This document shows, one piece after another, positions 16,014 through 49,328 of a stretch of DNA of 64,000 bases. Source of the DNA: Methanobacterium sp. (GTDB lineage: Archaea; Methanobacteriota; Methanobacteria; Methanobacteriales; Methanobacteriaceae); the NCBI GenBank assembly GCA_003151535.1, contig PLXT01000115.1, positions 33,941 through 97,940 of the forward strand, written 5' to 3'. The translations under genes were made by a program, and so were the position numbers. Each line of letters starts with the position of its first letter. Within the stretch, counting starts at the first letter, position 1. The notes under the pieces were generated by a model. It saw nothing but the letters and a program-made list of their open reading frames with translations. It was not told the origin of the DNA and did no database searches.

Positions 16014-16784
16014 TTAACGTCTACGTCCACCGCCGCCACCGAAACTGCTTCTACTACCTCCGAAACTACTCCTGCTGCTGCCTCCGAAACTGCTTCCACT
16101 AGAGCTAGACGTATGGCTTGAACCAAATCCGCCACTTCTAACTGGCGCAGATGAATTTCTTGATTCAAAGGATCTTTGACTTGTAGTTGGGCTTGATAAT
16201 GAGCTTCTGGATGGCGCTGAATTTACACTACGAGATTGGCTAGATCTTCCTGATGGGCTGTAGCTTCGTCTTACGATTGTAGTCTGGTGGTAAGATGATG
16301 GGTAATAACCGTAGTGATATAAAGGGGTATAGTAATGATGTGGGGCTAAGAGGTAAGACATCATTAAATAGTCTCCCACACTAAAATGAGATTGGTAACT
16401 ATAATCATTACCACAATAGGTCTGATTACCGTTAATGCTTAGAGTATTGCTTTGTTGATTAATATTCATAGTAGCTACAACTGCTGACTGTGTGCTGGAA
16501 TAATCATCGACCACTTGTAGTGTACCATTTTGCTGTTCAACGACTTTTACGTAATCTACCTTACCATCGTTATTTAGGTCCAAGTTGTTAATGCTGTTGT
16601 TTGGTGCATTAAGAGCTTGCTCAAGACTTTGTGGGTCTTTGGTAGTCTTTAATAGTTGCGCAAAATTGCTAACATTAAACCCTTGTACATTGCTGGGGGT
16701 TACGTCAATATTGACATCGTTTTGCTGTGGTTGAGAACAGCCTACTGTCAATAAAAATAGTAATGGAATAATAAATTTTTTCAT
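16014..16784 (-). CDS. lipoprotein with disordered Ser/Gly/Arg-rich C-terminus
   Basis: MKKFIIPLLFLLTVGCSQ lipobox; C-terminus SSGSSFGGSSRSSFGGSRSSFGGGGGRRR. Confidence 0.6.
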   Translation of the reverse strand: MKKFIIPLLFLLTVGCSQPQQNDVNIDVTPSNVQGFNVSNFAQLLKTTKDPQSLEQALNAPNNSINNLDLNNDGKVDYVKVVEQQNGTLQVVDDYSSTQSAVVATMNINQQSNTLSINGNQTYCGNDYSYQSHFSVGDYLMMSYLLAPHHYYTPLYHYGYYPSSYHQTTIVRRSYSPSGRSSQSRSVNSAPSRSSLSSPTTSQRSFESRNSSAPVRSGGFGSSHTSSSSGSSFGGSSRSSFGGSRSSFGGGGGRRR

Positions 16785-16844
16785 GTTGTATGTGTTTGTT
16801 TTGTTAGACTACAAATCTACAATAAGTTTTAACATTTCCAAACT

Positions 16845-17144
16845 TTATTTTTTTAAAGTGAACAAAATATAACCTTCTTGAATATCTATTGATTCAATTA
16901 ATCTATTAGTAGAATCATTAAAAAACTCCACTAAATTATCGCCTAATAAGATATAAGGACCACCGCTAGGGTCTATCATGGTGATTTTTCGCCCACCTTC
17001 TAGCTCTTCAAAGCCATACCTCATACCTAATTCAAAATAACCACTCATTCTAACTGTGTTATCTAAATCCTCAAAAGTAATTTTGTCTCTGTCTCTATTG
17101 CTGTAAACTATCTTCATATTAATGTCTCTCTTTTTTAACTTCAA
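16845..17144 (-). CDS. hypothetical protein (99 aa)
   Basis: ORF only. Confidence 0.4.
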   Translation of the reverse strand: MKLKKRDINMKIVYSNRDRDKITFEDLDNTVRMSGYFELGMRYGFEELEGGRKITMIDPSGGPYILLGDNLVEFFNDSTNRLIESIDIQEGYILFTLKK

Positions 17145-17344
17145 TTCTCATAGCTGGGCTGAGGTATTTTTTTCTAAAATTAGTTAAATTTTTTGCCCAG
17201 CCCCATAGTTTAAAACGTATACAAGTATTCAGTACTTTGCTAGTTAATTTTAATACTCCATCGTAATAATATCTCTTCATTTATTTATTTAAAAAATAAA
17301 TATCAAAAAATAATTTTACAATTATACACAATGCTATGGCTAAA

Positions 17345-17375
17345 AACAATAAAGCCCAAAAATTTTTGGGCTTTA
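17345..17375 (-). terminator. rho-independent terminator
   Basis: perfect hairpin AAAGCCCAAAAATTTTTGGGCTTT followed by T-rich tract on the minus strand. Confidence 0.55.
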
Positions 17376-17392
17376 AATTTTAATCTGGATAA

Positions 17393-17614
17393 TTAAACTG
17401 TTGTTCCTGAAAGTGGCGTAGGAGGTGTAGGAGGTGTAGGGGATGGCTTACTAACGATTGACCATATTGCACCAACTACTGTTATAATACCACCAATGAT
17501 TTGAGTTTCAAGGGCGCTGCTAATAGTACCTTCTGCAACCAAAATACCACCACCAAAGGTTAAGACGTGTCTAAGAATACCCAGAACTTGAATTTCTGTT
17601 AACTTAAGTTTCAT
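17393..17614 (-). CDS. small membrane protein, holin-like (2 TM, Gly-rich), Pro/Thr-rich tail
   Basis: start trimmed to MKLKLTEIQV...; hydrophobic helices LGILRHVLTFGGGILVAEG and IIGGIITVVGAIWSIV. Confidence 0.35.
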   Translation of the reverse strand: MKLKLTEIQVLGILRHVLTFGGGILVAEGTISSALETQIIGGIITVVGAIWSIVSKPSPTPPTPPTPLSGTTV

Positions 17615-17633
17615 AATGATTTTCTTATAAATA

Positions 17634-18116
17634 TCATCTGAAAACCTTAAAATCACTCCTCATATCAAAAAAACTCTTAAAAATTTGCATACTATCATAC
17701 AACGGAATGTTATACCTATTACAGAAAATATCCACATTAGCTTTTCTAGCATATCCTTCAGGACACACAACCGATATTTTGTTATAATGTGAAAATCTAC
17801 CCAATTCTAACATTGTTATAATACTATCCGTTTCTGGTAAGAAATTAAACAAAATAAAATCAGCTTTCTCCAAGGCATCCAATTCCCAATTAACCTGTTG
17901 AAACATTGCTGGGTTTTCAAACTTTTGTTCCAGTTTAGCATTCCAATCTTTTCGACGTGGGTTAAAAACACCCCAACCTTTACATAAGAAGAAATCTTTT
18001 GCTTGAAGCTGCCAATCAATAGAATTTCCCTGTTCTATCGTACCTGCTAAGAAAACGAATTGTTTATCAATACTTCTATTAGAAATATTCATGGGCGGCT
18101 CAAAGTAATTATTCAT
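17634..18116 (-). CDS. nucleoside 2-deoxyribosyltransferase-like (Rcl/DNPH1-fold) protein
   Basis: N-terminal FVFLAGTIEQGNSIDWQ motif typical of the family; paralogue at 60701..61123. Confidence 0.4.
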   Translation of the reverse strand: MNNYFEPPMNISNRSIDKQFVFLAGTIEQGNSIDWQLQAKDFFLCKGWGVFNPRRKDWNAKLEQKFENPAMFQQVNWELDALEKADFILFNFLPETDSIITMLELGRFSHYNKISVVCPEGYARKANVDIFCNRYNIPLYDSMQIFKSFFDMRSDFKVFR

Positions 18117-18128
18117 TAATCTATTAGT

Positions 18129-18644
18129 TTATTTATTGTATATGACGATTGTTACATCGCAATCTTTTAATTCAGCTTCGATTATTTTTTTTATAGTAGC
18201 CCAAGAACCACCCGCAAGCCCTGCGCCTATTTTGGGTAACCCAATGCGCTTACCTTTAAAAATATTATTTATCTTTCTCATACACAATGTCAGGGCTTCA
18301 TAATCCAGTGGTTTCTTAATACCATCAGAATGATTCTGACCATATTTGTATTGAGTGTAGCAATTAACCACCGTCAATTCAGGTTCATCCTCTGTATTAT
18401 CTGCATCATACAGATCCCACATGGCGTTTGATCCAAGAACAAATGTGTGATAATCTATACAACCCAATTTTTCAATAGTTTCGCCCCAAGTTTCCATCTC
18501 AAATACATCGCAACCAAAAGCCTTGGCCATTTGTGGTGCTATACCCGCACCCATCTTGGAGAAGCAGTTGCAGCCGTGGCCTATTACATCGAAAGCCCCG
18601 TTTCGCCCCAAGACAATTAGATCCCCATCTATTTCTTTATACAT
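18129..18644 (-). CDS. macro-domain protein of the TARG1/OARD1 type (ADP-ribose processing)
   Basis: GHGCNCFSKMGAGIA and LPKIGAGLAGGSW and VTIVIYNK align with the TARG1 pattern AHCISEDCRMGAGIA / MPRIGCGLDRLQW / ITVYTL. Confidence 0.55.
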   Translation of the reverse strand: MYKEIDGDLIVLGRNGAFDVIGHGCNCFSKMGAGIAPQMAKAFGCDVFEMETWGETIEKLGCIDYHTFVLGSNAMWDLYDADNTEDEPELTVVNCYTQYKYGQNHSDGIKKPLDYEALTLCMRKINNIFKGKRIGLPKIGAGLAGGSWATIKKIIEAELKDCDVTIVIYNK

Positions 18645-18734
18645 AAAGTTATTTTTGTTTCCTTAAACATTCCTGTACCCATTCAAGATTTCGTTGCTCC
18701 TATTTTTCTATGGCATCGCCTTTAGCCATAGTTC

Positions 18735-19067
18735 TTATTTAATTTCGTCAAACCAAACGACGCCATTTAATAATGTTCTTTCCATCCTAATATGACCACC
18801 AATACCATATTCCCAATATGAAAAACGATACCCACCATCTGATCCATATGTCGAAACATCTGTGTAGATGGGAAGCTTATATGTAACAGTCTTAACACTT
18901 CCGTTCACCAATTCAACCCTAAAGGTTCTTTTAACCATTGTATGGTCATAATTATTCCATTGTTCGGCTATTACGGTAATTAGTGCTGCTAGGGTAAGTA
19001 ACATTATAATTGATAATGTCGAAGATATCGAAAATATAAATTTCATAACGCTTACGATTTTAAACAT
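18735..19067 (-). CDS. membrane-anchored protein (110 aa)
   Basis: N-terminal TM segment. Confidence 0.4.
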   Translation of the reverse strand: MFKIVSVMKFIFSISSTLSIIMLLTLAALITVIAEQWNNYDHTMVKRTFRVELVNGSVKTVTYKLPIYTDVSTYGSDGGYRFSYWEYGIGGHIRMERTLLNGVVWFDEIK

Positions 19068-19260
19068 TTATCTTTTAAATCCATACCTATTTGCATCCAG
19101 GTGCTTCTTCTACCAATAGTATATCCATTTTCACTATTTATAAGTAAGAACATCCCTATAACACTAGCAACTAAAAATAAAGTGGCGAACATCCAAATAA
19201 TAAAAACTACGTATTTCATAAAGTATTTTTTTTATGCCATTCAATATTGTTTTTCGTCCA

Positions 19261-19608
19261 TCAGACAGGTATTATTAATTCACGTTTATTCTCCAAGTCA
19301 AACTCCAAATTCCAATCGCAACTATTTGGAGTATTATCTTGCCAACTTCTTAGTACTATATCACACACGTACACCTTCTCTTGTTCTTCCATATTACTAC
19401 TCACTACACCTAAATTATTGTTATTATCAAGATCCAATATTTCATTTAATGTGATAGTCTTTTCAATTATCTCATTACTCGTCTCATCACGTAGAAGCTT
19501 ATCAATTCCAGTTAAACGTAATACTACATTACTACTTTCTTTGATTAGGATGCCCTCGCCATTACCCAGTATTGCAACAATACAATCCTTATAAGTAGCA
19601 GTTGTCAT
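19261..19608 (-). CDS. hypothetical protein (115 aa)
   Basis: ORF only. Confidence 0.4.
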   Translation of the reverse strand: MTTATYKDCIVAILGNGEGILIKESSNVVLRLTGIDKLLRDETSNEIIEKTITLNEILDLDNNNNLGVVSSNMEEQEKVYVCDIVLRSWQDNTPNSCDWNLEFDLENKRELIIPV

Positions 19609-19613
19609 GATAA

Positions 19614-21164
19614 TTAGATTATGAGTTTCTTGCGAATTTCTTCAAAAGTAGTGATATTCTCAAACTCACCGTCCCTATACAATACTTTTAATGCACCCTC
19701 TTTTTCTTCGGCCATACTAACTTTTTCAATCAGTTCGTAAGTACCGCTTTCCCCAATCACTTTTCCCAATCCTGTTGCTGATTTTTTAGTACCGTCATCA
19801 GTTATGGGATCTTTGAATATTTCACGCTCTTCACCGTTTACGATGACGAAAGTAGCCTTCATCGCAAACCCAAAGGTGTCACGTGTATTAAACTGATATG
19901 TAAAGCTACCCACACCCAATACAATATTGGTGCTAGCGAAGCCTTTATCTGCTAAGCGCTGACAAATTTCTTCGGCACGTGCAATCGTGATAGAATCTCC
20001 GTACAAAGCCCCAATGTGCGTATCTAAGACTTTATAACCTTGGTCATTAATAGTGCCGCCGAAGACTTCCCATAGCAATTCAATAACTCCTTTGCATGCT
20101 GGGATATCTTTTTCTTCGATAAGCCTATCTGGCATGAATCTATTATCTAGGGTATAATATTTACCGTCAACTATAGTAAACTCTTTGTGACCACAAATTA
20201 TATCAACAGGATTACCACTGTCAGGACGTAAAACCAATTTACCATCACGAGCTAAAATTTCATTCTTCAGTGTACGAACATGCTGGGTACAGACTTTCCA
20301 TAAATCCCATGTGTCAGCTACAACACCCAATATACCTGTAGGATATATAGTGAACAGTCTGCGGATTGTTTCTACTTCATCATCTTTTTTACCTGCGCAC
20401 ATTACGCTGTGTTCAGTTGCAGGTACGGTACCAATAACTTGACCTTGTGCATTATAGTATTTTCTAGCACCATTAATAACTGGCAGTGTATCAGATCCCA
20501 TGAATGATGTGGCATGACCCAATCCAGAAGTTATTGATGGTCCAATGCCATCCATTCCACGCATGCTGAAATCATGCGCCTGCCAATCCACAAACCACGC
20601 TCTTCCTATGTCAGTTTTTTGCTGCCAATAAGACAAAAGTTTACGATAAGAATGTGCAATAGTTGCAGAAGTCATTGGCTTCCACAGCAAGTTAGAGATG
20701 ATTGTTTCAAGGAAGTTTGTAACCCAAAAAAAATCTGGGTGTGTATTTTTTATCGTTAATACTGGAACGCGAATTGGAACCAATGTACCTTCTTCCAATA
20801 TTTTCACTTCAATGGGTAGATACCCTAAGTCATGTAACCGTTCAATACGACTTACATCATAATTAACACCCAAAAGCAAAGAATATTCTCTTTTGATCTC
20901 TTGGCAAACTACATTCTTTGGTTTACTAAAAAACCCATACTGGAAGAGAGAATGTATTTCAATCATTGTCATTTGTTGACCAAATGACACTACTTGTTCA
21001 CAACCTTGTGGAGCATACTTATTACTTCTGGGCGTAAAGTTTGAACACACAAATGTTGTACCATCAGGATATTGAGGGGGGTGAGAAGTTTTGTACCCAT
21101 CACATAATAAAAATGGGTTAATAATGTCTGACACTAATTGCCAATTAATAGATTGATTGCTCAT
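19614..21164 (-). CDS. nicotinamide phosphoribosyltransferase (NAMPT/NadV) family enzyme; alternatively a NARP1-type nicotinamide ADP-ribose transferase
   Basis: LLCDGYKTSH, HDFSMRGMDG, GSDT, ATEHSV, RPDSGNP, GDSI and FKDPI motifs align along the whole NAMPT sequence. Confidence 0.85.
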   Translation of the reverse strand: MSNQSINWQLVSDIINPFLLCDGYKTSHPPQYPDGTTFVCSNFTPRSNKYAPQGCEQVVSFGQQMTMIEIHSLFQYGFFSKPKNVVCQEIKREYSLLLGVNYDVSRIERLHDLGYLPIEVKILEEGTLVPIRVPVLTIKNTHPDFFWVTNFLETIISNLLWKPMTSATIAHSYRKLLSYWQQKTDIGRAWFVDWQAHDFSMRGMDGIGPSITSGLGHATSFMGSDTLPVINGARKYYNAQGQVIGTVPATEHSVMCAGKKDDEVETIRRLFTIYPTGILGVVADTWDLWKVCTQHVRTLKNEILARDGKLVLRPDSGNPVDIICGHKEFTIVDGKYYTLDNRFMPDRLIEEKDIPACKGVIELLWEVFGGTINDQGYKVLDTHIGALYGDSITIARAEEICQRLADKGFASTNIVLGVGSFTYQFNTRDTFGFAMKATFVIVNGEEREIFKDPITDDGTKKSATGLGKVIGESGTYELIEKVSMAEEKEGALKVLYRDGEFENITTFEEIRKKLII

Positions 21165-21173
21165 GTTTTGGGG

Positions 21174-21941
21174 TTAAAAAAGTTTTATTATTGTAAGATT
21201 GTTTAAATCGTATTCGTCATATTTGCTATTGGTACAAAATACCGTTTCGTATAATGTCTCCAACTCTTTATTGGGATTCTTAACTGTCATATGACTTACA
21301 GCTAGATATAATTTACCCACGTTGCGATCCTTAAGCATCTTTGCAAGGCCCAAAAACGTCCCTCCAACCACGCATATGTCATCCGCAATTAAAATGTCTT
21401 TACCTTGGAAATCTTGCCGATCAATAACTTGTGTGAGCTTATGCGTGTGAGGATCACGGGCTTTATTGGCTCCATATACCTCACCATCGAATGATATAAT
21501 ATCGGCTAGCTTATTGATCCATTTGTAAGATCCTGCGTCCGTGGAAAGCAAAATAGGTTTTGGTGGTATTTCTGAAAGAACAGTTTTGATAAATTTGCTA
21601 TTATCAATAATTCGCACATTGTTTAGAAGTGCTGGTGTGATATCGCTATGAGGATGGAAAACATGTACCTTACCAAAGTTACAAGAGTTTATGAAATCAC
21701 ATACCAATTTCAATTCAAAGGATTGGTTGTCTGAAAACCTACGATCATGCTGTTGCTGAAACATACACGGAATTCTCAATTCAACATCTTTAATTCCGTT
21801 ATAATCACAACTGTCTTTCAGTGATTTTACAAAAAATAGATCTTCGTAGGAATTTATTTTTTCTGTAATTATGGGGTTGGTAAAATCATCAATACTGGCA
21901 TACACGCCGTTATCAGGGTATCGGTTTCTTTTATACTGCAT
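21174..21941 (-). CDS. truncated ribose-phosphate pyrophosphokinase (Prs)-like enzyme, 255 aa (candidate ADP-ribose pyrophosphokinase of NARP1)
   Basis: PRPP/phosphoribosyl-binding loop ILIADDICVVGGT and Prs C-terminal half similarity; the N-terminal Prs half is missing. Confidence 0.6.
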   Translation of the reverse strand: MQYKRNRYPDNGVYASIDDFTNPIITEKINSYEDLFFVKSLKDSCDYNGIKDVELRIPCMFQQQHDRRFSDNQSFELKLVCDFINSCNFGKVHVFHPHSDITPALLNNVRIIDNSKFIKTVLSEIPPKPILLSTDAGSYKWINKLADIISFDGEVYGANKARDPHTHKLTQVIDRQDFQGKDILIADDICVVGGTFLGLAKMLKDRNVGKLYLAVSHMTVKNPNKELETLYETVFCTNSKYDEYDLNNLTIIKLF

Positions 21942-22009
21942 TTTAATAAATTTAATTTAACTTTTTAGTATAGCCTCAAAAACCTCCTCTATGTTTCATA
22001 ATTTAATTA

Positions 22010-22942
22010 TTATGCTGGGCAATGAATAATTTCTTTTCCGCGACCAATACTTGGCTTAGCTTTATCTGGGTTATTTCTCATCCATTCTTGGACAAACCAT
22101 AATTGCCCACAGCCTCCGCCTATATCGTCCTGACCTGCTGGATTAAAGACACGAGTAGAAAAACCTCTATTAGCCAATTCAGTTGTAAAATCAAGCGCCA
22201 ATTCTTCTTGCCTTTTATTGGCTGCAGCAATATGTTCATCACGTTCACATATTACAGATATAGTGGCTTCCCAGTGAGTTGGGTTAAATAATTCCAATAA
22301 TCTATCGGCATCCTCTTGGGTGTTATTTTTCTCATGCACACAATAGTTAAAAAATGCTTTTCGGCCTGTAGTAGAATGAAACTTTGTACCCACTTCAGCT
22401 ATCTTACTTAAAGTTAATTTTTTAGCAAAAGGAATGAGTTTATTCCGAGCTTCATCGGAAGATTCATGTACGGAAAATTGTAGACCAATTTTAGGTATTT
22501 CTACCGATAACGAAATTAGCTCATCGTATGAATCTACATCAGGCCCAGATGTGCTTATTAATAGTGCTGCGTTGGGATACAGTTCATGAAGTTTGTTAAG
22601 AGCAATTTTAAGATTCTTGAAGTTAAGGAAAGGTTCCCCCATACTCATAAACATAATTTGAAGTCTACCTATATCCTTAACGTCAACGTTAGTAGTTTCC
22701 AGAAGGTGAACTGGTTGTGAAATTATTTCTTCACTTGTTAAAGACCTTACAAAGTTATCTCCAGCGCCACAGAATCTGCATCCCACTGGACAACCACTTT
22801 GAGTACTACAACAAATAACTGTTCTGTCCTCATATGTTGGATATTTGTATAACACTGACTCGGCAACTGCTGAATCTTTAGTGAAGACAAATTTCTTAAC
22901 ATTAGTATCAGTACTTTGAATTTCTTTAATATCGCTCCACAT
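22010..22942 (-). CDS. radical SAM methyltransferase of the RlmN/Cfr family (310 aa)
   Basis: CPVGCRFCGAG cluster (CxxxCxxC), MGEPFLN, ISTSG and C-terminal GQDDIGGGCGQL motifs parallel RlmN (MGMGEPLLN, LSTSG, GDDIDAACGQL). Confidence 0.65.
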   Translation of the reverse strand: MWSDIKEIQSTDTNVKKFVFTKDSAVAESVLYKYPTYEDRTVICCSTQSGCPVGCRFCGAGDNFVRSLTSEEIISQPVHLLETTNVDVKDIGRLQIMFMSMGEPFLNFKNLKIALNKLHELYPNAALLISTSGPDVDSYDELISLSVEIPKIGLQFSVHESSDEARNKLIPFAKKLTLSKIAEVGTKFHSTTGRKAFFNYCVHEKNNTQEDADRLLELFNPTHWEATISVICERDEHIAAANKRQEELALDFTTELANRGFSTRVFNPAGQDDIGGGCGQLWFVQEWMRNNPDKAKPSIGRGKEIIHCPA

Positions 22943-22973
22943 AAGAAGGGTTTTTAATTAATAAATAAATTAT

Positions 22974-23516
22974 TTAAATATTCAAACATTGGTTGGAATG
23001 GTGTTTTGCCTCGCCGAATCCCAACTTTGAGATAAAGTGTGCGTTTTCTTTTTGATACGTAGTAAACATTTTACTTTTTGTCATCTTGGAATATTGCACA
23101 TTTGCAATTCTATCACATAACTTAACGAACACAGCGGCATTGATCTTAACTATCCCAGCATAATATTTATCATTGGCTCTTTCTTCACGAGTTTTACCTT
23201 TCTCATTAGAGACTGCGTATATTATATCAGCGGCTTCTTCACCCAAATGGCCAAACACATCATTGTAAGACACCCTGCAATCCTCAATTAAATCATGGCC
23301 CCAGCATGCACGTATAATTATTTCCCTGTTATATTCTCGTTTCTCCCGATTATAATTTATACCAGACAGAGTACTATCCAAATACAAATCGATAAAATCT
23401 TTTGCGACATTTACAACCATACGCAAATGAAATTCGTATGGCAAGTATTCAGAATACATGTAACATGTTCTTACATGTTGTTGGATACACCAGTTAGAAA
23501 TTAGCTCTTGTGTCAT
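22974..23516 (-). CDS. HD-domain phosphohydrolase
   Basis: H...HD motif (WGHDLIEDC) with downstream His/Asp residues. Confidence 0.55.
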   Translation of the reverse strand: MTQELISNWCIQQHVRTCYMYSEYLPYEFHLRMVVNVAKDFIDLYLDSTLSGINYNREKREYNREIIIRACWGHDLIEDCRVSYNDVFGHLGEEAADIIYAVSNEKGKTREERANDKYYAGIVKINAAVFVKLCDRIANVQYSKMTKSKMFTTYQKENAHFISKLGFGEAKHHSNQCLNI

Positions 23517-23577
23517 AACGCTTATTTGATTAAATATACTAAATATTTTTGGTTAAATATCAAAACAAATCCTTTAT

Positions 23578-23745
23578 TTTACCATAAAATATCTTAACGG
23601 CTATACTTAGTATGATAGCAATAAACGATACTAACCCCAGTATTTGCATTGTTTGCCAAAAATGAAACAGTAACACGTACACGGCAAATAAAACACACAA
23701 TGTTTTACTGATATTTTTAATTTCAGACGTAGACATTATAAAATT
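23578..23745 (-). CDS. small membrane protein (about 55 aa, below the ORF-track cutoff)
   Basis: minus-strand ORF MSTSEIKNISKTLCVLFAVYVLLFHFWQ... filling the gap between neighbours. Confidence 0.3.
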
Positions 23746-24249
23746 CTATTTTAATCCCTTTGTTAAAACTAAATCTTCTTTATCTTCAAAGTACTCAATC
23801 GGTAAACCATTTTCCTTTGTATATTCTCCTACTGTAGAAGCATCAATAAATCCATTCTTGTGATAGAAGTTTAACGGCTTTTTATTTTTATCGATATAAA
23901 CACATAGTTCAGTGCAATTTTCCTTTATTGCTTTTTCTTCCAATTGATTGAGAACAAGAGTACCTAAATTTTTGTTTCTATATTCATCTAAAACACCAAA
24001 CCACCCTAGCCACAATTGATCTGTAGATCCTGGGTGCAATGAATAAAGGCCACATATCCCTATTGTCTTTCTTTTATATTTGATAATGAAAACTTCCCAA
24101 AAATGTTCTGATTTATCTCCCTTATCTAGCACTCCGCACCACGATAAAATAGCATGATAATAAGTATAACCAAAATCTAAAATAAAGCCCTCTAATATAG
24201 GGCGATAGGCTTTCAGTCGTCGTGTCTGAACTAATGAAATTAAACACAT
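23746..24249 (-). CDS. GNAT-family N-acetyltransferase
   Basis: acetyl-CoA-binding-like segment GVLDEYRNKNLGTLVLNQLEEKA. Confidence 0.5.
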   Translation of the reverse strand: MCLISLVQTRRLKAYRPILEGFILDFGYTYYHAILSWCGVLDKGDKSEHFWEVFIIKYKRKTIGICGLYSLHPGSTDQLWLGWFGVLDEYRNKNLGTLVLNQLEEKAIKENCTELCVYIDKNKKPLNFYHKNGFIDASTVGEYTKENGLPIEYFEDKEDLVLTKGLK

Positions 24250-24314
24250 TAAATAGTCTTTATGGAATGAACTTATAAGTCTGGTTGCTCTTTTTTGTTA
24301 TTTTTTATATTAGT

Positions 24315-24602
24315 TTAAATTGGCAACCATTTTATTTTCCAAAATTCATACCATTTCCTTTTAGCCTGTAACTTACACTCACTAAAAGGATTTGTTCCGA
24401 AAGATACTTTGTTGTAATATTTGGCTGTTAATACATTTATGAATACTTCATGATAGTTTGGTGGTATGCTGGCAAAATCTGATATTATATCCACTGTCAA
24501 ATCTATTGGGCCTTCTTGGGTTATCACAGTTAATACTTCCGACATTCTAACAATCGTGGATGCCTTAACATTAAGGACATCTGATTGAAGGTTATATTCC
24601 AT
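24315..24602 (-). CDS. hypothetical protein (95 aa)
   Basis: ORF only. Confidence 0.4.
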   Translation of the reverse strand: MEYNLQSDVLNVKASTIVRMSEVLTVITQEGPIDLTVDIISDFASIPPNYHEVFINVLTAKYYNKVSFGTNPFSECKLQAKRKWYEFWKIKWLPI

Positions 24603-24638
24603 AATTAAAATTTAATTGATTTCACGAGTTAAAGGTGA

Positions 24639-25580
24639 TTAGAAGCGAATCCCCTTGATATATTCTATATGTTCCTCGGACATTGGTGCCCCAGTGAAAT
24701 TGAGGGTTAAAAAAGTGGTCAACACATCCTCCTCGCTTGCAGACTCAGATAATTCACCCACGGTCAAAGCATCGTAGTTTAAAAACCTTCTTTGAGCATT
24801 TGCTGATAAATCCTCAAAAAAGTTTCCATATTCGTCAGGGAATTTATTCTGTACAAATTCTAATATAGCGTGAAACCGTTGTTTGCCATCTACACAATCG
24901 AAATTAAAGCCATGCCCTGTCTCGATGACTTCTTTTTCGATGTGCGCCCAAGCATGATATTTAAATAAGAATTTACCTATTTCAATACCATTGTATATAC
25001 TGGAGATTAGAAGCTGTTTTTCATGTTTCGTCCATACCAATGGTCTTTGATAATACTTTACACCTTCTGATGTCGTAACATATGGGTTGAAATTAATTCC
25101 TCCATACGTCTTACCAAAATGATCTCCGTCCTCTTTCTTGTCGAAATGATTATAATCTGGGGTGTTAAATAAATCACTTTTTCTACCATATCCACCACGG
25201 CTCAATATACTTTCAATTGAGTTGTTATAAAATCTAACATCAACGGTTCGTTTAAATGGATTTGCACCGCATGCGAATGTGTTTTGTTTAACAAACTCAG
25301 CCTTAACAACTTTATCATCATATTCATAACCTTTTAAAGCAATTTCAGAAGGTATACTGTGACTGTAACTCTCAATGTCATAACATAATCCATGAACTGG
25401 GCTATCGATAATTTTTAGTATATCGCCACTAAGATAAAACACAGTATCCGTAGATGTCTGAACAAATTTACCCTTAACCTTAACCGAACCAATTTTCTTA
25501 TATGGCACCCTAACATCTACATAATCACCAACTTTAATGGGTTTCTGTAATTGGGCTTGTATTTCTTGACTCTTGCTCAT
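24639..25580 (-). CDS. protein with C-terminal ParB/DUF262-like (DGQQR-type) domain
   Basis: FDCVDGKQRFHAILEF resembles the DGQQR motif of DUF262/ParB-like nucleases. Confidence 0.35.
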   Translation of the reverse strand: MSKSQEIQAQLQKPIKVGDYVDVRVPYKKIGSVKVKGKFVQTSTDTVFYLSGDILKIIDSPVHGLCYDIESYSHSIPSEIALKGYEYDDKVVKAEFVKQNTFACGANPFKRTVDVRFYNNSIESILSRGGYGRKSDLFNTPDYNHFDKKEDGDHFGKTYGGINFNPYVTTSEGVKYYQRPLVWTKHEKQLLISSIYNGIEIGKFLFKYHAWAHIEKEVIETGHGFNFDCVDGKQRFHAILEFVQNKFPDEYGNFFEDLSANAQRRFLNYDALTVGELSESASEEDVLTTFLTLNFTGAPMSEEHIEYIKGIRF

Positions 25581-25752
25581 GTTTTAAGGTGTTTATTTTT
25601 GTTATCAGTTCGTTTAAGACTCTATCAAGTTCTCTCCTTTTTGGTGTTTCTGGACTATAAATCAATGCTAAGTCCTTAGAGTATTTGAAATGTTCCCAAT
25701 AATTAAATTGAAGTATTTCTAACTGGATTGTCATCGAGTGCAAATATAACAA
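25534..25752 (-). CDS. hypothetical protein (72 aa)
   Basis: ORF only. Confidence 0.3.
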   Translation of the reverse strand: MLYLHSMTIQLEILQFNYWEHFKYSKDLALIYSPETPKRRELDRVLNELITKINTLKHEQESRNTSPITETH

Positions 25753-25781
25753 AACTTCTTTACTATAGCAAAACTTATTTA

Positions 25782-26300
25782 CTATAACTCGTTAGAGTTA
25801 AGTATTTTACCGTTATTTAAAATTTTTTTTGCTTGAAAAACATTTCCCATTGTTAGTCCTACAAATCTATCAATCAAAAGGAAATTATTCCTTTGCCAAT
25901 ATAACATATCAGAATCATCATCCAATATGACATATTCAGTGAATTGATAATAGGGACCGACCAACGCTTCATTATCTTTAACCCAAGTTAATATCTCATT
26001 GCCTCTAAGACAATTATCACTACGTAAATTTGGTGTGATATCCAATATTTCTCCTTTGAATTTGTGAAATTCAAGTGCGTTTCTGCACTGCTCAATACCA
26101 TCACTTCTCCATGTTGAAGAAATTACAATCTTTGCTTGGGTGTCCTTGCACAAGGAGTTTAGATTTTGAACGCATTCTGGATCAATTTGCGAAAATCTAT
26201 GTGGTAAATTATCGAATGTTTTGTTCTTTTTTATATGGCGTTCTTTATAAAATCTTTCATGATTTAAGACACCATCGATATCCAGAAATATTATCTTCAT
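25782..26300 (-). CDS. HAD-superfamily phosphatase (172 aa)
   Basis: motif I IIFLDIDGVLN, motif II ISSTWR, motif IV ILDDDSD. Confidence 0.55.
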   Translation of the reverse strand: MKIIFLDIDGVLNHERFYKERHIKKNKTFDNLPHRFSQIDPECVQNLNSLCKDTQAKIVISSTWRSDGIEQCRNALEFHKFKGEILDITPNLRSDNCLRGNEILTWVKDNEALVGPYYQFTEYVILDDDSDMLYWQRNNFLLIDRFVGLTMGNVFQAKKILNNGKILNSNEL

Positions 26301-26304
26301 GGTG

Positions 26305-26973
26305 TTATAGTTCTTTTATAGGTAGTTCTCTACCCAGCAAAGCAAAATATAAATTCTGCAGCTGATGTAAATAATGAACTATATTAATATTAACCTTAAA
26401 TTGTTCATTTCCATTATCTCTACTAAGCCACATTCCTAGTGCATCCTTATCTGTGTATTGGCCTTCTGTAGGTGCCCATAAAAATGAAATTTCATCCCCA
26501 GCTGGGTTGCTTATCAATTCCATAGCGCCATCATCTCCAGCTTCACTACCTTCTTGGGTAAATCCGCACTTTTCTAATATGCTTACGGTTAGCACAATTG
26601 GCTCATAATGTTTGACATCTACAGCATCAATTTCCAGACGTTCTGTATTGAAATTGTATCCAATTACATCTTTAATCCTTCTTATTGGATTTTCCGCAAA
26701 TGTAGATAGCTTCAATATATTACCAATTCTTAACTCTTGTATTGTTAACGTTGGGGTTGGGGTTGGTACGACTAATGCTACCTCGTTTTTGGTTAGTAAT
26801 ATTCCATCAATGGGATGCCATTCTTTTTGATTCACAAGATGTGTGCCGCCTGAGTAATCTCCTTCAAGCTCAACTTGGGTTTCTCTTAATCCCACAATCT
26901 TCATCTCTTCACGGCCCCAATAAATATCCGAGTGATAAACAATTTGACCTAGTTTCAATTTACTAACTTTCAT
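26305..26973 (-). CDS. hypothetical protein (222 aa)
   Basis: ORF only. Confidence 0.45.
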   Translation of the reverse strand: MKVSKLKLGQIVYHSDIYWGREEMKIVGLRETQVELEGDYSGGTHLVNQKEWHPIDGILLTKNEVALVVPTPTPTLTIQELRIGNILKLSTFAENPIRRIKDVIGYNFNTERLEIDAVDVKHYEPIVLTVSILEKCGFTQEGSEAGDDGAMELISNPAGDEISFLWAPTEGQYTDKDALGMWLSRDNGNEQFKVNINIVHYLHQLQNLYFALLGRELPIKEL

Positions 26974-26994
26974 ATTTTATTTTAATTTATTTAT

Positions 26995-27219
26995 TTAGCT
27001 GATAGATTTTTGAAAGGTTTTCAGTTCTTCCAATGTTTCAAAGTCATGACTTCCAAACATATTTGAATGAATTGACTTGGTGGTAAACATATCTGTTTTA
27101 CCATTTGTGTATTTTATCTCCAAAGCATATTGGCCCATGTATTCTGTAAAGTCATAAGGAATTATTTCTTTAATAAACATCTTATCTTGGCTTAATTTAG
27201 GCTCTACTTTATGTGTCAT
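26995..27219 (-). CDS. hypothetical protein (74 aa)
   Basis: ORF only. Confidence 0.35.
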   Translation of the reverse strand: MTHKVEPKLSQDKMFIKEIIPYDFTEYMGQYALEIKYTNGKTDMFTTKSIHSNMFGSHDFETLEELKTFQKSIS

Positions 27220-27221
27220 TG

Positions 27222-27782
27222 TTAATATTTTTTATCAAACCAAGCATAAAAAGCTATGTCAGCCTTATGCACACTACCTCTGACGAATGCCTCATAAGCT
27301 ATGGCTTTTACTTGTTCTCTATTCCAACTATCCTTTACAGGAAGGATTATAACTTGACCTGTATAAGCGTTTCCTAGAACTAAACTAATGTTACCATCAT
27401 TATGTAGTTCAATATATACATCCTTAATCTCCCCTTGCTTTCCTATCCATTCGTCCTCTAGCCATGTGGTAGGTATGAGAGGTAGACCAAGTGAAGGATC
27501 TGTAGTGGCTTCTAGTCTCTTCATTTTATTACTAACAAACCCCCACAAATTTTCATCGTGTGATGGTTTAGCTAACGATTTACTATCAAACATTGCCCAA
27601 TCATTATAACCAATTTTTCTATCAGAAACTAAATATAGGTGTTGGTTCCCTTCTGTTTCTATTTCATTATCGGTATTCAAATTTAACTTCTTATCGAAAT
27701 AAGGGTTATTCTCTTCCTTAAAGAAGGGGGGGCGATCATTAGTAGGAAGCATTACAGGATAGCAAAGTAATTTGTTTTCCAT
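27222..27782 (-). CDS. hypothetical protein (186 aa)
   Basis: ORF only. Confidence 0.45.
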   Translation of the reverse strand: MENKLLCYPVMLPTNDRPPFFKEENNPYFDKKLNLNTDNEIETEGNQHLYLVSDRKIGYNDWAMFDSKSLAKPSHDENLWGFVSNKMKRLEATTDPSLGLPLIPTTWLEDEWIGKQGEIKDVYIELHNDGNISLVLGNAYTGQVIILPVKDSWNREQVKAIAYEAFVRGSVHKADIAFYAWFDKKY

Positions 27783-29675: not shown

Positions 29676-30193
29676 TATTTTAATGTTGTATCCTTCTTCA
29701 AGTAGTCAATCAATTCCTCTTTACTCAAATCTTTAGCCTTGTCCAAAAAATTTTCCTTATTAGTTTTGGGGGCAATACCTATGACTTCTCTATCAGAATT
29801 ACTTAAATCACTAACATATTTTTCAAGACGTAAGTGCAAAAATTTTGTAATATCAGAAGGAATTTGTTTGCTAGATGAATCACTCGTTATGAAATTACCT
29901 ACACTGCCACCAGCAATTATAAGCATTGTATCTGTTTTTGAGGGTGTAAGAATATACATTGCCCAAAATAAAATCATAAATGGATAGGCCCACCACATCC
30001 ATTTTTTAGATCTTTCGCCAAGACCATCTTTTGGGCATTCCATACATTCGTCACGACCTACTATAAAACAAATAGTCGCAAGTACAGAAATTACAGTGAA
30101 AATAGTAATAAAAGTAATAAAGAAATCTCTTGCGTTATCAGCTATGCTTAACCAATAAAAAATACTGTACCAGTTTACATTAATAAGTTTCAT
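29675..30193 (-). CDS. membrane protein, paralogue of 31015..31389
   Basis: shared motif PSK..M.I.AGG...NF..SDSS.SKIP...TK with 31015..31389. Confidence 0.45.
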   Translation of the reverse strand: MKLINVNWYSIFYWLSIADNARDFFITFITIFTVISVLATICFIVGRDECMECPKDGLGERSKKWMWWAYPFMILFWAMYILTPSKTDTMLIIAGGSVGNFITSDSSSKQIPSDITKFLHLRLEKYVSDLSNSDREVIGIAPKTNKENFLDKAKDLSKEELIDYLKKDTTLK

Positions 30194-30213
30194 TTTTTTA
30201 TTTTATATTAATA

Positions 30214-30606
30214 CTAAGCTTTTCTAAATCGTTGAATCGATGGATATGGGCGGTAGCCTTTAATTTCCTTTGTAAATTTTTTATGCGCAGTCACTATAAC
30301 ATTGCTAGAAAAACTTTTTATTACTTTTGTAGTGGTTTGATTATTGATCTTTTCACGACAAATAGATAGATATCTTCTTGCAATGTCAGCCATAATTTTT
30401 TTATCATTCATTTTACTTACTTGTCCTAATATTTTGGAATAATGATCAATCACCCTTAAACAACAAAAATAATTGAGACCTCTTTCTAATTCTTTTTCTA
30501 ACTCTCTCATTAATTCTTGCGCAGCTTTTTCAGACCCCACAGTGTTCAAGTATGTTTGATACGCTAATGGGAACTCCTTACTTGGTATACAGCGAGTTTT
30601 TATTGA
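30214..30606 (-). CDS. hypothetical protein (start trimmed to MSIKTRC...)
   Basis: the ORF-track start overlaps 30620..30964 by 110 nt; the internal Met gives a 4-nt-type junction. Confidence 0.4.
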   Translation of the reverse strand, partial: SIKTRCIPSKEFPLAYQTYLNTVGSEKAAQELMRELEKELERGLNYFCCLRVIDHYSKILGQVSKMNDKKIMADIARRYLSICREKINNQTTTKVIKSFSSNVIVTAHKKFTKEIKGYRPYPSIQRFRKA

Positions 30607-30619
30607 CATATGAAGACGA

Positions 30620-30964: not shown

Positions 30965-30977
30965 GTATTTTGTTTAG

Positions 30978-49319: not shown

Positions 49320-49328
49320 TTGTGTTAG

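What the first reader, a model, noticed from the sequence alone, without database searches (positions are those of the whole stretch)
22010..22942. Phage-encoded RlmN/Cfr-family radical SAM methyltransferase
The CxxxCxxC cluster plus the RlmN-specific MGEPxLN, STSG and C-terminal GxDDIxxxCGQL motifs are all present in a compact 310-aa protein. RlmN methylates C2 of 23S rRNA A2503 and tRNA A37, and Cfr methylates C8 of A2503, which confers multi-drug ribosome resistance. A viral copy may re-tune the host translation apparatus or modify the phage tRNAs.
Basis: partly seen in the sequence, partly recalled or inferred. Interest (0 to 1): 0.6.

Follow-up and report, generated by a model that had tools for sequence, protein, structure and literature searches.

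The report
Truncated RlmN-like radical SAM enzyme beside NAD genes

Summary

The fold and catalytic residues are those of RlmN/Cfr: the [4Fe-4S] CxxxCxxC, the resolving Cys C44 (RlmN C118), the methyl-carrying Cys C278 (RlmN C355) and E28 (RlmN E105).

It is neither an RlmN nor a Cfr orthologue:
- It scores 118 bits against a cut-off of 290 (RlmN) and 78-87 against 468-550 (Cfr).
- It lacks the whole N-terminal HhH2 RNA-binding domain.
- Two substrate contacts shared by RlmN and Cfr are replaced (N to S229, R to F266).
- It is acidic (net charge -8).
- Its clade of short proteins separates from all full-length RlmN and Cfr in 99-100 of 100 bootstraps.

The new result is context. Here the gene lies in a co-directional block with no intergenic terminator-like site, next to an Adps/Namat (NARP1) NAD+ reconstitution pair. 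In 37 of 139 related viral loci and 10 of 67 genome-contig loci it lies within 5 kb of NAD+ synthesis genes of three different routes. No paper I searched or read mentions this.

The substrate is unresolved. I weigh an NAD/ADP-ribose-linked adenine target at about 0.35-0.4, tRNA/rRNA at about 0.35, and everything else at about 0.25-0.3. Nothing supports A2503-type antibiotic resistance.

The parts
22010..22942 (-). 310-aa RlmN/Cfr-superfamily radical SAM protein without the HhH2 domain: beta-extension, partial TIM barrel and C-terminal Cys loop.
   Evidence: ORF; family and PDB matches; AF2 model and Foldseek; alignment with RlmN/Cfr references.
22769..22792 (-). CPVGCRFC, the [4Fe-4S]/SAM cluster motif (C51, C55, C58). 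The resolving Cys C44 lies just upstream, at 22811-22813.
   Evidence: These columns are invariant in the reference alignment and in 54 clade members.
22100..22135 (-). GQDDIGGGCGQL loop holding C278, the equivalent of the methyl-carrying Cys (RlmN C355 / Cfr C338).
   Evidence: invariant in the clade.
22974..23516 (-). 180-aa metal-dependent (HD-type) phosphohydrolase. It is the gene immediately upstream, 31 nt from the radical SAM start.
   Evidence: ORF; PHROG 990, E 6e-22.
21174..21941 (-). 255-aa Prs-like protein, a candidate Adps (ADP-ribose pyrophosphokinase of NARP1). It starts 68 nt after the radical SAM stop.
   Evidence: Pfam Pribosyltran; PHROG 619, E 4e-45; 31-34% identity to Prs-like proteins in isolate phages, many lying next to a NAMPT-like gene.
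19614..21164 (-). 516-aa NAMPT-like protein, a candidate Namat of NARP1. It starts 9 nt after the Adps-like gene.
   Evidence: Pfam NAPRTase; PHROG 448, E 2e-182; 49% identity to Bacillus phage FADO and 48% to SPbetaL1, the phages whose NARP1/Namat was tested experimentally (10.1101/2024.02.11.579819).
18129..18644 (-). 171-aa weakly macro-like protein. This family recurs in the same clusters elsewhere.
   Evidence: PHROG 335, E 2e-41; Pfam Macro 18.5 bits, below cut-off. Family 3 lies within 5 kb of the radical SAM gene in 13 viral loci and near Namat in 18 of 80 loci.
17634..18116 (-). 160-aa nucleoside 2-deoxyribosyltransferase-like protein, also recurrent in these clusters.
   Evidence: Pfam PF15891, E 2e-25. 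Family 4 occurs in 14 viral loci and in 21 of 80 Namat loci.
17350..17375 (.). 11-bp-stem hairpin with T tracts on both strands. It is the first intergenic terminator-like site downstream of the block on the - strand.
   Evidence: The only other - strand sites between 24250 and 17350 lie inside ORFs (24203-24187 and 18225-18213).

Best explanation
The ORF encodes a functional, stand-alone class A radical SAM methyl synthase.

Shown:
- It has the RlmN/Cfr beta-extension, partial TIM barrel and C-terminal loop.
- It keeps the CxxxCxxC cluster, the methyl-carrying Cys (C278), the resolving Cys (C44) and the conserved Glu (E28).
- It has no N-terminal HhH2 RNA-binding domain.
- It belongs to a large clade of short proteins, mostly on viral contigs, that branches outside RlmN plus Cfr.
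- In this window it sits in a co-directional block with no intergenic terminator-like site: HD phosphohydrolase > radical SAM > Adps-like > Namat-like > two small ORFs > macro-like > NDT-like. That block is a NARP1-type NAD+ reconstitution island.
- Across relatives the gene recurs inside NAD+ synthesis clusters of three different routes.

Inferred:
- It uses RlmN/Cfr chemistry. One SAM methylates C278. A second SAM is cleaved to a 5'-deoxyadenosyl radical, which abstracts H from the methyl-Cys. The methylene radical adds to an amidine carbon (C2 or C8) of an adenine ring, and C44 resolves the adduct.
- Its physiological target is tied to NAD+/ADP-ribose metabolism or NAD-centred phage-host conflict. 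I picture the adenine of a low-abundance NAD- or ADPR-derived nucleotide, not A2503 of 23S rRNA. It would then be an occasional accessory of phage NAD+ reconstitution modules.

My weights are about 0.35-0.4 for an NAD/ADPR-linked target, about 0.35 for a tRNA or rRNA adenine, and about 0.25-0.3 for everything else. The confidence of 0.4 given below refers to the NAD-linked reading. I put the fold-and-chemistry part much higher, at about 0.85.
For: Fold and catalytic residues:
- Family, PDB and structure matches; residue mapping.
- 54 clade members keep C44, C51, C55, C58, C278 and E28 invariant.

Separate clade:
- A neighbour-joining tree of 84 sequences separates the clade from all 20 full-length RlmN/Cfr sequences in 99-100 of 100 bootstraps.
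- 85 representatives at 50% identity match at E<1e-30.

NAD linkage:
- An NAD-synthesis gene lies within 5 kb in 37 of 139 unique viral loci, and within 2 kb in 33 (tblastn).
- By ORF clustering the figures are 29 of 91 loci with full flanks and 17 of 54 subclusters at 70% identity.
- Many same-strand gene orders occur: NadM>rSAM>NAMPT, NadM>NAMPT>rSAM, rSAM>Prs>NAMPT.
- 10 of 67 genome-contig loci carry PncA, PncB, NadE or NadM-type genes nearby.
- Ornithinimicrobium murale has an operon with overlapping stop and start codons: PncB > isochorismatase/PncA > rSAM > Nudix+NrtR winged-helix protein.
- One radical SAM-Nudix fusion is followed by NAMPT and NMNAT genes.
- A 26%-identical, more divergent RlmN-related radical SAM gene lies between macro and Adps genes in another NARP1 cluster.
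- NadV occurs in only 22-33% of medium and jumbo phages (PMC9503650). I estimate chance proximity at a few percent.

Against a canonical RNA mode:
- N307/N288 becomes S229 and R344/R327 becomes F266, both invariant in the clade.
- Mean core net charge is -4.9 for the clade (-8 for this protein) against +3.3 for full-length RlmN/Cfr.

Operon structure: gaps of 31, 68, 9 and 5 nt, and no intergenic terminator-like site.
Against: - No class A radical SAM methylase is known to act on anything but rRNA or tRNA. This rests on my own knowledge of the family.
- Enzymes of this type are slow and use two SAM per turnover, so bulk modification of a millimolar NAD+ pool during infection is implausible (inference).
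- About 73% of viral loci have no NAD gene within 5 kb. These include all four isolate phages inspected and the abundant mouse-gut subclade P0274.
- The association is one-sided. Only 1 of 80 loci holding the closest Namat relatives carries any radical SAM gene, so NARP1 clearly works without it.
- The Nudix fusion is a single cluster on one contig.
- Many loci may share ancestry, and accessory genes cluster in hypervariable phage regions.
- HhH2-less RlmN homologues exist in a housekeeping rimM-trmD-rplS / SpoU context (P0220). Loss of the domain therefore does not exclude an RNA substrate.
- A tRNA gene lies within 5 kb in 19 of 129 loci, and in Stenotrophomonas phage ANB28 the gene lies inside the tRNA cluster.
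Confidence: 0.4

Rival explanations
1. It is an RNA adenine C-methyltransferase working like RlmN. It would make m2A37 (or m8A) on phage or host tRNAs, or on an rRNA site, using the radical SAM core alone or a partner for RNA recognition. One possible purpose is to complete modification of phage tRNAs, or to harden anticodon loops against host anticodon nucleases. On this view the NAD neighbourhood only reflects co-location of accessory genes.
For: - RNA methylation is the only activity known for the superfamily.
- All catalytic residues are conserved.
- The window phage has 18 tRNA genes, and its three tRNA-Gln have A37.
- In phage ANB28 the gene lies within the tRNA cluster.
- tRNA genes lie within 5 kb in 14 of 91 full-flank loci and 13 of 54 subclusters, and RtcB in 7 of 129 loci.
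- A HAD 'Swiss Army Knife' RNA-repair phosphatase gene lies at 25782-26300.
- An HhH2-less homologue, P0220, sits in a rimM-trmD-rplS / SpoU operon of a small cellular genome.
Against: - It has no HhH2 domain, it is acidic, and RlmN/Cfr-shared contacts are replaced.
- P0220 belongs to the other group of short proteins, which clusters with full-length RlmN rather than with this clade.
- The window tRNA array is 25 kb away.
- The phage tRNA-Glu has C37 and the tRNA-Asp has T37, so two classic RlmN substrates could not be modified.
- It does not explain the repeated insertion between NadM and NAMPT, or the PncB-PncA-rSAM-NrtR operon.
Confidence: 0.35
2. It is a Cfr-like resistance determinant or ribosome re-tuner. 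It would methylate A2503 of 23S rRNA at C8 or C2 and so change antibiotic susceptibility or nascent-peptide sensing.
For: Weak homology to Cfr models (78-87 bits) and to the Cfr structure 9p0p. The relay cysteines are present.
Against: - It scores far below the Cfr cut-offs of 468-550 bits.
- It lacks the HhH2 domain that anchors H91/H92 and lacks the basic alpha5/beta6 loop of Cfr.
- The three Cfr references form their own group in 100 of 100 bootstraps, inside the full-length set and away from this clade.
- RlmN and Cfr act on naked 23S rRNA (PMC13001441). I infer from this that a lytic phage gains little from modifying newly made ribosomes.
Confidence: 0.05
3. It acts on DNA or deoxynucleotides. 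It would C-methylate adenine as a phage DNA hypermodification, with HD or Nudix partners clearing the canonical nucleotide, by analogy with PurZ/DatZ/MazZ systems.
For: - An HD phosphohydrolase gene lies immediately upstream.
- One distant homologue, P0208, is fused to a dGTPase-like HD+HD_assoc module.
- A GmrSD_N/DUF262-like gene and an NDT-like gene lie nearby.
Against: - The HD neighbour is not conserved across loci.
- The P0208 fusion is in a non-viral-looking contig and is only 34% identical.
- No polymerase or nucleotide-synthesis partner recurs.
- I know of no C-methylated adenine reported in phage DNA.
Confidence: 0.05
4. It uses the RlmN scaffold for different radical chemistry or for another substrate, for example a protein, or a rearrangement of an ADPR derivative rather than a methylation. 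Alternatively it is a decaying accessory gene with no important function.
For: - The clade has extra invariant Cys residues (C201 in NYC, C232 in SVICE) and a conserved C-terminal tail (G300, H307, P309) that RlmN and Cfr lack.
- The NARP1-linked relative in L379 lacks the resolving Cys and has ITCGNAIL instead of GGCGQL.
Against: - In the window clade both relay cysteines and E28 are invariant across the 54 aligned members. The clade as a whole is large, with 85 representatives at 50% identity matching at E<1e-30. That is the signature of the methyl-relay mechanism under purifying selection.
- The ORF is intact and the model is confident.
Confidence: 0.12

Closest known systems
RlmN (23S rRNA m2A2503 / tRNA m2A37 methyl synthase; TIGR00048, PDB 3rfa, 5hr7, 6fz6)
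   Same: It shares the partial TIM-barrel radical SAM core with the beta-extension, the CxxxCxxC motif, MGEP and STSG motifs, the E105, C118 and C355 equivalents, and the CGQL loop. RlmN gives the best sequence and structure matches.
   Different: It has no HhH2 N-terminal domain (about 80 aa) and scores 118 bits against the 290 cut-off. N307 becomes S and R344 becomes F. It has an acidic rather than a basic C-terminal region, forms a separate clade, and has a viral, NAD-gene context instead of a housekeeping one.
Cfr / Cfr(B-E) (23S rRNA m8A2503, multidrug resistance; NF000424, TIGR04432, PDB 9p0p)
   Same: Same superfamily, same relay cysteines and same overall core fold.
   Different: It scores 78-87 bits against cut-offs of 468-550. 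It has no HhH2 domain and no alpha5/beta6 basic loop insertion. The pocket residues of Cfr (M95, S103, S153, N288, R327, S328, F330) are not conserved. It does not group with the Cfr references.
PHROG 24834 and unnamed phage homologues (Stenotrophomonas phages ANB28 and BUCTxx99, Xanthomonas JGB6, Aeromonas Ahp1, Vibrio 249E41-1 and relatives, Salmonella Arash, uncultured 462-kb phage LR756500)
   Same: They share 49-64% identity over nearly the full length, the same short architecture and the same clade.
   Different: None is characterised. Their annotations range from 'hypothetical' and 'prohibitin family protein' to 'RlmN'. In the four isolates I inspected (ANB28, Arash, Vibrio 249E41-1, Ahp1) the gene is not next to NAD genes.
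NARP1 (Adps + Namat) and NARP2 (NadV + NadM/NatV) phage NAD+ reconstitution pathways
   Same: The gene is adjacent to an Adps-like/Namat-like pair in this window and to NadV/NadM in many relatives. The window Namat-like protein is 48-49% identical to the Namat-type proteins of phages FADO and SPbetaL1, which were used experimentally.
   Different: NARP1 is described as a two-gene pathway, and the NARP1/2, NARP3 and RyR papers do not mention a radical SAM gene. A survey of viral NAD/ADPr systems does not mention one either. Only 1 of 80 Namat loci carries a radical SAM gene.

Membership tests
Radical SAM superfamily (PF04055) | A CxxxCxxC [4Fe-4S]/SAM motif in a partial TIM barrel, with a score above the Pfam gathering cut-off. 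| tested here: met
   36.1 bits against a cut-off of 29.5. CPVGCRFC at aa 51-58. The AF2 model shows alternating beta/alpha elements.
Class A radical SAM methyl synthases (RlmN/Cfr superfamily) | Two additional conserved cysteines: the methyl carrier near the C-terminus in a CGQL loop, and the resolving Cys seven residues before the cluster motif. | tested here: met
   C278 and C44 align with RlmN C355/C118 and Cfr C338/C105. Both are invariant in 54 clade members.
Class A radical SAM methyl synthases (RlmN/Cfr superfamily) | An RlmN/Cfr-type fold: beta-extension, radical SAM core and C-terminal loop. | tested here: met
   The top 11 Foldseek PDB hits are RlmN or Cfr, with E 1e-18 to 4e-13 and query-normalised TM-scores of 0.60-0.71. 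The next family appears at 1e-5.
RlmN (TIGR00048 / NF008396 equivalogs) | A whole-protein score at or above the curated cut-off. | tested here: not met
   117.8 bits against 290, and 74.4 against 633.
RlmN and Cfr | An N-terminal HhH2 RNA-binding domain. | tested here: not met
   The query aligns from RlmN residue about 84. The model begins with the three beta-extension strands. The multiple alignment shows about 57-79 residues missing.
RlmN and Cfr | Branches within the RlmN or the Cfr clade. | tested here: not met
   In the neighbour-joining tree the window clade separates from all 20 full-length RlmN/Cfr sequences in 99-100 of 100 bootstraps. The tree is distance-based with limited reference sampling.
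RlmN and Cfr | Substrate-nucleotide contacts shared by both enzymes (N307/N288 and R344/R327). | tested here: not met
   They are replaced by S229 and F266, both invariant in the clade. The contact list comes from PMC13001441.
Cfr (NF000424, TIGR04432, NF011024) | Reaches the curated score cut-off and has the elongated basic alpha5/beta6 loop. | tested here: not met
   86.6, 78.4 and 80.8 bits against 530, 550 and 468. The loop insertion is absent in the alignment.
RlmN / Cfr | Catalytic activity: m2A or m8A at A2503 or A37. | not testable with these tools
   This needs mass spectrometry of RNA after expression or infection.
NARP1 module (neighbouring genes, not the radical SAM gene itself) | An adjacent Prs-like Adps gene and NAMPT-like Namat gene on one strand. 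| tested here: met
   Genes at 21174-21941 and 19614-21164 are 9 nt apart. The NAMPT-like protein is 48-49% identical to those of phages FADO and SPbetaL1. 74 of 80 loci with the closest Namat relatives also carry a Prs-like gene. The Adps-clade residues and enzyme activities were not tested.
NARP1/NARP2 module membership of the radical SAM gene | Regular co-occurrence with the pathway genes. | tested here: inconclusive
   NAD genes lie near 27% of viral radical SAM loci, but a radical SAM gene lies near only 1 of 80 Namat loci.

The most novel reading that the evidence does not exclude
This clade would be the first class A (RlmN/Cfr-type) radical SAM methyl synthase whose physiological substrate is not rRNA or tRNA. 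Instead it would act on the adenine of an NAD+- or ADP-ribose-derived nucleotide, such as an ADPR-type immune signal or a pathway intermediate. That would make it an unrecognised accessory enzyme of phage NAD+ reconstitution and counter-defence modules, and of some bacterial NrtR-linked salvage operons.
Probability: 0.3. Interest if true: 0.85.

Novelty: new variant of a known kind. Interest (0 to 1): 0.62.

Why it matters
RlmN and Cfr are the only characterised class A radical SAM methylases, and Cfr is a clinically important resistance enzyme. Three consequences follow.

- **Annotation.** A large clade without the HhH2 domain is currently auto-annotated as '23S rRNA (adenine2503-C2)-methyltransferase'. 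It matters that it is not an orthologue and is unlikely to be a mobile resistance reservoir. The clade has 85 representatives at 50% identity matching at E<1e-30, lies on contigs of up to hundreds of kb, and also occurs in bacterial genomes.
- **Enzymology.** It offers a minimal scaffold for asking how substrate and C2 versus C8 regiochemistry are chosen without the RNA-binding domain.
- **Phage-host conflict.** Its repeated insertion into NARP1, NARP2 and PncA/PncB/NadE-type clusters suggests an unexplored layer in the contest over NAD+. This is testable with existing NAD+-depleting defence systems and metabolomics.

Tried and rejected
- **Close DNA relatives.** Megablast of 19000-26000 against 50,697 phage records found nothing. 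The phage has no close sequenced isolate.
- **Exact-sequence contig look-up.** The look-up for P0001 found no record.
- **A conserved partner gene.** No neighbour family occurs in more than about a quarter of loci. The upstream HD gene is not conserved.
- **Nudix fusion as a Rosetta stone.** It is real in its contig but is a single cluster on one contig, so I give it little weight.
- **HD-dGTPase fusion (P0208).** It is only 34% identical and sits among aconitase and histidinol dehydrogenase genes. It is not informative for this clade.
- **Riboswitches or other RNA motifs.** Rfam at E up to 1 found nothing in 16500-27500, and only one tRNA in five related loci.
- **Promoter scan.** 43 sites were found against 43.2 expected from shuffles, so it is uninformative.
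- **Literature.** No paper was found linking RlmN-like radical SAM genes to phages or to NAD genes. The NARP1/2, NARP3 and RyR papers, the viral NAD-ADPr survey and the NrtR paper do not mention one. The library is incomplete, so absence is not proof.
- **Exact-clade bootstrap values.** These were low (4-11 of 100) because of fragmentary, unstable sequences. I replaced them with a separation test.
- **Model coordinates.** These were not available to scripts. I could not measure distances between the extra cysteines or compute surface electrostatics.
- **Variovorax reference locus.** I could not identify the coding frame in this high-GC locus, so I dropped it.
Full report
**1. The observation**

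The window has a single ATG-to-stop ORF at 22010..22942 on the - strand, 310 aa long. It contains the following motifs:
- CPVGCRFC, aa 51-58
- MGEPFLN, aa 101-107
- STSG, aa 130-133
- GQDDIGGGCGQL, aa 270-281

The match to known families is strong:
- Pfam Radical_SAM scores above its cut-off.
- The best NCBIfam models are RlmN (TIGR00048, E 4.9e-34) and then the Cfr models.
- The best solved structures by sequence are RlmN (6fz6, 3rf9, 5hr6) and Cfr (9p0p).
- An AlphaFold2 model built on 54 homologues has mean pLDDT 90.7. Its 11 best Foldseek hits in the PDB are all RlmN or Cfr. The next family (SuiB, viperin) is eight orders of magnitude weaker in E-value than the weakest of those hits.

The surroundings are those of a large phage:
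- 18 tRNA genes
- a T5 A1-like DNA transfer protein, a homing endonuclease and a phage sigma factor
- about 34% GC with nearly all genes on one strand
- an identical protein recorded on a contig of 348 kb

**2. What the protein is and is not**

I aligned it with E. coli, B. velezensis and S. aureus RlmN and with Cfr, Cfr(C) and Cfr(D). The catalytic apparatus is complete:
- E28 aligns with RlmN E105.
- C44 aligns with the resolving Cys (RlmN C118, Cfr C105).
- C51, C55 and C58 align with the cluster ligands.
- C278 aligns with the methyl-carrying Cys (RlmN C355, Cfr C338).

All of these are invariant in 54 clade members. This argues for purifying selection on the methyl-relay mechanism.

Four defining features of RlmN and Cfr are nevertheless missing.
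- **Curated scores.** It reaches 118 bits against 290 for RlmN, and 78-87 against 468-550 for the Cfr models.
- **The HhH2 domain.** The protein starts at the beta-extension and the whole N-terminal domain is absent. In the Cfr-rRNA cryo-EM structure this domain anchors H91/H92, which correspond to the acceptor and D arms in the RlmN-tRNA complex. [quoted passage not shown]
- **Shared nucleotide contacts.** Residues that contact the target nucleotide in Cfr and are identical in RlmN are replaced. N288/N307 becomes S229 and R327/R344 becomes F266, both invariant in the clade. The Cfr alpha5/beta6 basic loop is also absent.
- **Charge.** The clade is acidic. Mean core net charge is -4.9, and -8 with pI 5.6 for this protein. 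The same region of full-length RlmN/Cfr averages +3.3.

**3. Phylogenetic placement**

A search of 1.84 billion representative proteins found 85 representatives at E<1e-30 and 2439 at E<1e-10. Scores fall off continuously, running from short proteins of about 280-320 aa into full-length RlmN-like proteins of about 340-366 aa.

I built a neighbour-joining tree of 84 sequences. All close relatives of the window protein form one assemblage of short proteins. This includes the isolate phages:
- Stenotrophomonas ANB28
- Salmonella Arash
- Vibrio 249E41-1
- Aeromonas Ahp1

The full-length RlmN and Cfr sequences sit together elsewhere in the tree, nested among a second set of short proteins.

Exact-clade bootstraps were low because of fragmentary sequences. 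A bipartition separating the window clade from all 20 full-length RlmN/Cfr sequences was nevertheless present in 99-100 of 100 replicates. RlmN and Cfr are thus closer to each other than either is to this protein.

The other short group includes P0220. That gene lies among SpoU, rimM, trmD and rplS in a small cellular genome. Housekeeping RlmN-like enzymes without HhH2 therefore exist, and domain loss alone does not exclude an RNA substrate.

**4. Distribution**

The clade is abundant in metagenomes. The top 120 clusters are 66-75% identical, about 310 aa long, and many lie on contigs of 250-590 kb. 238 IMG/VR stretches encode relatives. JGI auto-annotates some as '23S rRNA (adenine2503-C2)-methyltransferase'.

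In the phage isolate collection only 13 records carry a clade member, at 49-64% identity. Their annotations include 'hypothetical', 'prohibitin family protein', 'putative radical SAM protein, partial' and, once, 'RlmN'. PHROG 24834 has no assigned function.

68 loci were also found in bacterial and archaeal assemblies. Many are MAG contigs that may be mis-binned phages. Others are isolates such as Mycolicibacterium, Cupriavidus, Duganella, Bradyrhizobium, Ornithinimicrobium and Desulfosporosinus.

**5. Genomic context: the main new result**

The - strand order in the window is as follows:

| Coordinates | Gene |
|---|---|
| 22974-23516 | HD phosphohydrolase |
| 22010-22942 | radical SAM |
| 21174-21941 | Prs-like |
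| 19614-21164 | NAMPT-like |
| (two ORFs) | small ORFs |
| 18129-18644 | macro-like |
| 17634-18116 | nucleoside 2-deoxyribosyltransferase-like |

The gaps between the first five genes are 31, 68, 9 and 5 nt. No intergenic terminator-like site occurs until a strong hairpin at 17350-17375.

The NAMPT-like protein is 49% identical to that of Bacillus phage FADO and 48% to that of SPbetaL1. These are the phages in which the two-gene NARP1 pathway (Adps plus Namat, rebuilding NAD+ from ADP-ribose and nicotinamide) was tested (10.1101/2024.02.11.579819). The Prs-like gene matches the neighbouring Adps-type genes of such phages.

I collected 139 unique viral loci for the radical SAM clade.
- An NAD+ synthesis gene (NAMPT/NadV, NadM/NatV, Prs/Adps, PncA, PncB, NadE or an NrtR-like Nudix) lies within 5 kb in 37 loci and within 2 kb in 33.
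- With ORF clustering the figures are 29 of 91 loci with full flanks, and 17 of 54 subclusters at 70% identity.
- The arrangements are varied and on the same strand: NadM>rSAM>NAMPT, NadM>NAMPT>rSAM, and rSAM>Prs>NAMPT.
- One member, P0131 (45% identity), is fused to a Nudix domain and is followed by NAMPT and NMNAT genes.

In the genome-contig set, 10 of 67 loci have the gene within 2 kb of a third kind of salvage set: PncA, PncB, NadE and NadM. In Ornithinimicrobium murale DSM 22056 the genes overlap stop-to-start in the order NaPRTase > isochorismatase/PncA > radical SAM > Nudix+NrtR winged-helix protein.

A far more divergent RlmN-related radical SAM gene sits between macro and Adps genes in another NARP1 cluster, L379. 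It is 26% identical, has no resolving Cys, and has ITCGNAIL in place of GGCGQL.

NadV occurs in 22% of medium-sized and 33% of jumbo phages (PMC9503650). From that, I estimate that chance proximity within 5 kb in genomes of 100-350 kb would be a few percent.

None of the papers I searched or read mentions a radical SAM or RlmN-like gene in these clusters. These are the NARP1/2, NARP3 and RyR papers, the viral NAD-ADPr survey and the NrtR paper.

**6. Limits of that result**

- The link is one-sided. Among the 80 IMG/VR loci with the closest Namat relatives, 74 have the Prs/Adps gene, 18 a macro-like gene and 21 an NDT-like gene. Only one has any radical SAM gene.
- About 73% of radical SAM loci have no NAD gene nearby. 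These include the four isolate phages inspected and the abundant mouse-gut subclade P0274.
- The Nudix fusion is a single cluster.
- tRNA genes lie within 5 kb in 19 of 129 loci and 13 of 54 subclusters. In phage ANB28 the gene lies within the tRNA cluster. RtcB occurs in 7 loci.
- In the window itself the tRNA array is 25 kb away. The three tRNA-Gln have A37, but tRNA-Glu has C37 and tRNA-Asp has T37.

**7. Mechanism**

Shown: the fold, the cluster motif, both relay cysteines, the absence of HhH2, the separate clade, and the gene order.

Inferred from established RlmN/Cfr enzymology: the steps below.
1. SAM methylates C278.
2. A second SAM is reductively cleaved to give a 5'-deoxyadenosyl radical, which abstracts H from the methyl-Cys.
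3. The methylene radical adds to an sp2 amidine carbon of an adenine ring.
4. C44 resolves the adduct.

Which carbon is attacked (C2 or C8) and which molecule is the substrate cannot be read from sequence.

I weigh the targets as follows:

| Target | Weight |
|---|---|
| An adenine linked to NAD+/ADP-ribose metabolism or signalling | about 0.35-0.4 |
| tRNA or another rRNA site | about 0.35 |
| 23S A2503 in the Cfr/RlmN manner | about 0.05 |
| DNA or dNTP | about 0.05 |
| Other chemistry | about 0.1 |

Bulk methylation of the NAD+ pool is kinetically implausible for this enzyme class. A low-abundance nucleotide or a macromolecule is more likely.

**8. Novelty and verdict**

The protein is a genuine member of the RlmN/Cfr superfamily but a new variant. 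It is a clade without HhH2, mostly on viral contigs, that fails the membership tests for both named families. It also has a gene context, NAD+ reconstitution and salvage, that none of the papers I searched or read describes.

It should not be annotated as 23S rRNA m2A2503 methyltransferase, nor treated as a Cfr-like resistance gene. It deserves an experimental substrate screen.

Noticed in passing
window 19614-21941 (- strand): An adjacent Prs-like (255 aa) and NAMPT-like (516 aa) gene pair looks like a NARP1 (Adps + Namat) NAD+ reconstitution operon. The NAMPT-like protein is 48-49% identical to those of Bacillus phages FADO and SPbetaL1.
   Followed up: partly
window 17634-18644 (- strand): A macro-like gene (PHROG 335) and a nucleoside 2-deoxyribosyltransferase-like gene (PF15891) end the same block. 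Both families recur near Namat genes, in 18 and 21 of 80 loci, so they may be regular accessories of NARP1.
   Followed up: partly
window 48433-60485 (- strand): The array holds 18 tRNA genes. ARAGORN places a pyrimidine at position 37 in tRNA-Glu (C37, 55652-55726) and tRNA-Asp (T37, 55996-56067). Two genes are 90 nt long (tRNA-Lys 49230-49319, tRNA-Pro 50144-50233). These may be mis-folds, pseudo-tRNAs or altered anticodon loops.
   Followed up: no
window 25782-26300 and 24639-25580 (- strand): There is a HAD phosphatase of the 'Swiss Army Knife RNA repair' type (PF18143, E 3e-27) and a 313-aa protein with a GmrSD_N/DUF262 domain. A GNAT acetyltransferase lies at 23746-24249, just upstream of the HD gene.
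   Followed up: no
window 3048-4358 (- strand): A 436-aa ORF strongly matches a PHROG transposase family (PHROG 506, E 8.5e-133), suggesting an insertion element in the phage genome.
   Followed up: no
window 31519-32433 (+ strand): This homing-endonuclease-like ORF is one of the very few + strand genes in a window otherwise coded on the - strand. GC skew flattens in the same 2-kb bin (30001-32000).
   Followed up: no
L094 724-3003 (protein P0208): A 759-aa fusion joins a short RlmN-like radical SAM domain to a dGTPase-like HD+HD_assoc module. It lies in a contig with aconitase and histidinol dehydrogenase genes, so it is probably cellular.
   Followed up: partly
L224 6001-6846 (protein P0220): A 281-aa RlmN homologue without HhH2 lies in a SpoU-rimM-trmD-rplS neighbourhood on a 202-kb contig. 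This suggests that housekeeping RlmN has lost the N-terminal domain in some reduced genomes.
   Followed up: partly
L379 2012-7656: A NARP1-type cluster has the order macro > divergent radical SAM (346 aa, no C118 equivalent) > 148-aa ORF > Adps-like > P-loop kinase/HAD fusion (318 aa) > Namat-like. The kinase-HAD protein may be another NAD-cluster accessory.
   Followed up: partly
L259 6059-9664 (Ornithinimicrobium murale DSM 22056): An operon with overlapping stop and start codons reads NaPRTase > isochorismatase/PncA-like > radical SAM > Nudix+NrtR winged-helix regulator, in an isolate genome. It is unclear whether this region is a prophage or an island.
   Followed up: partly
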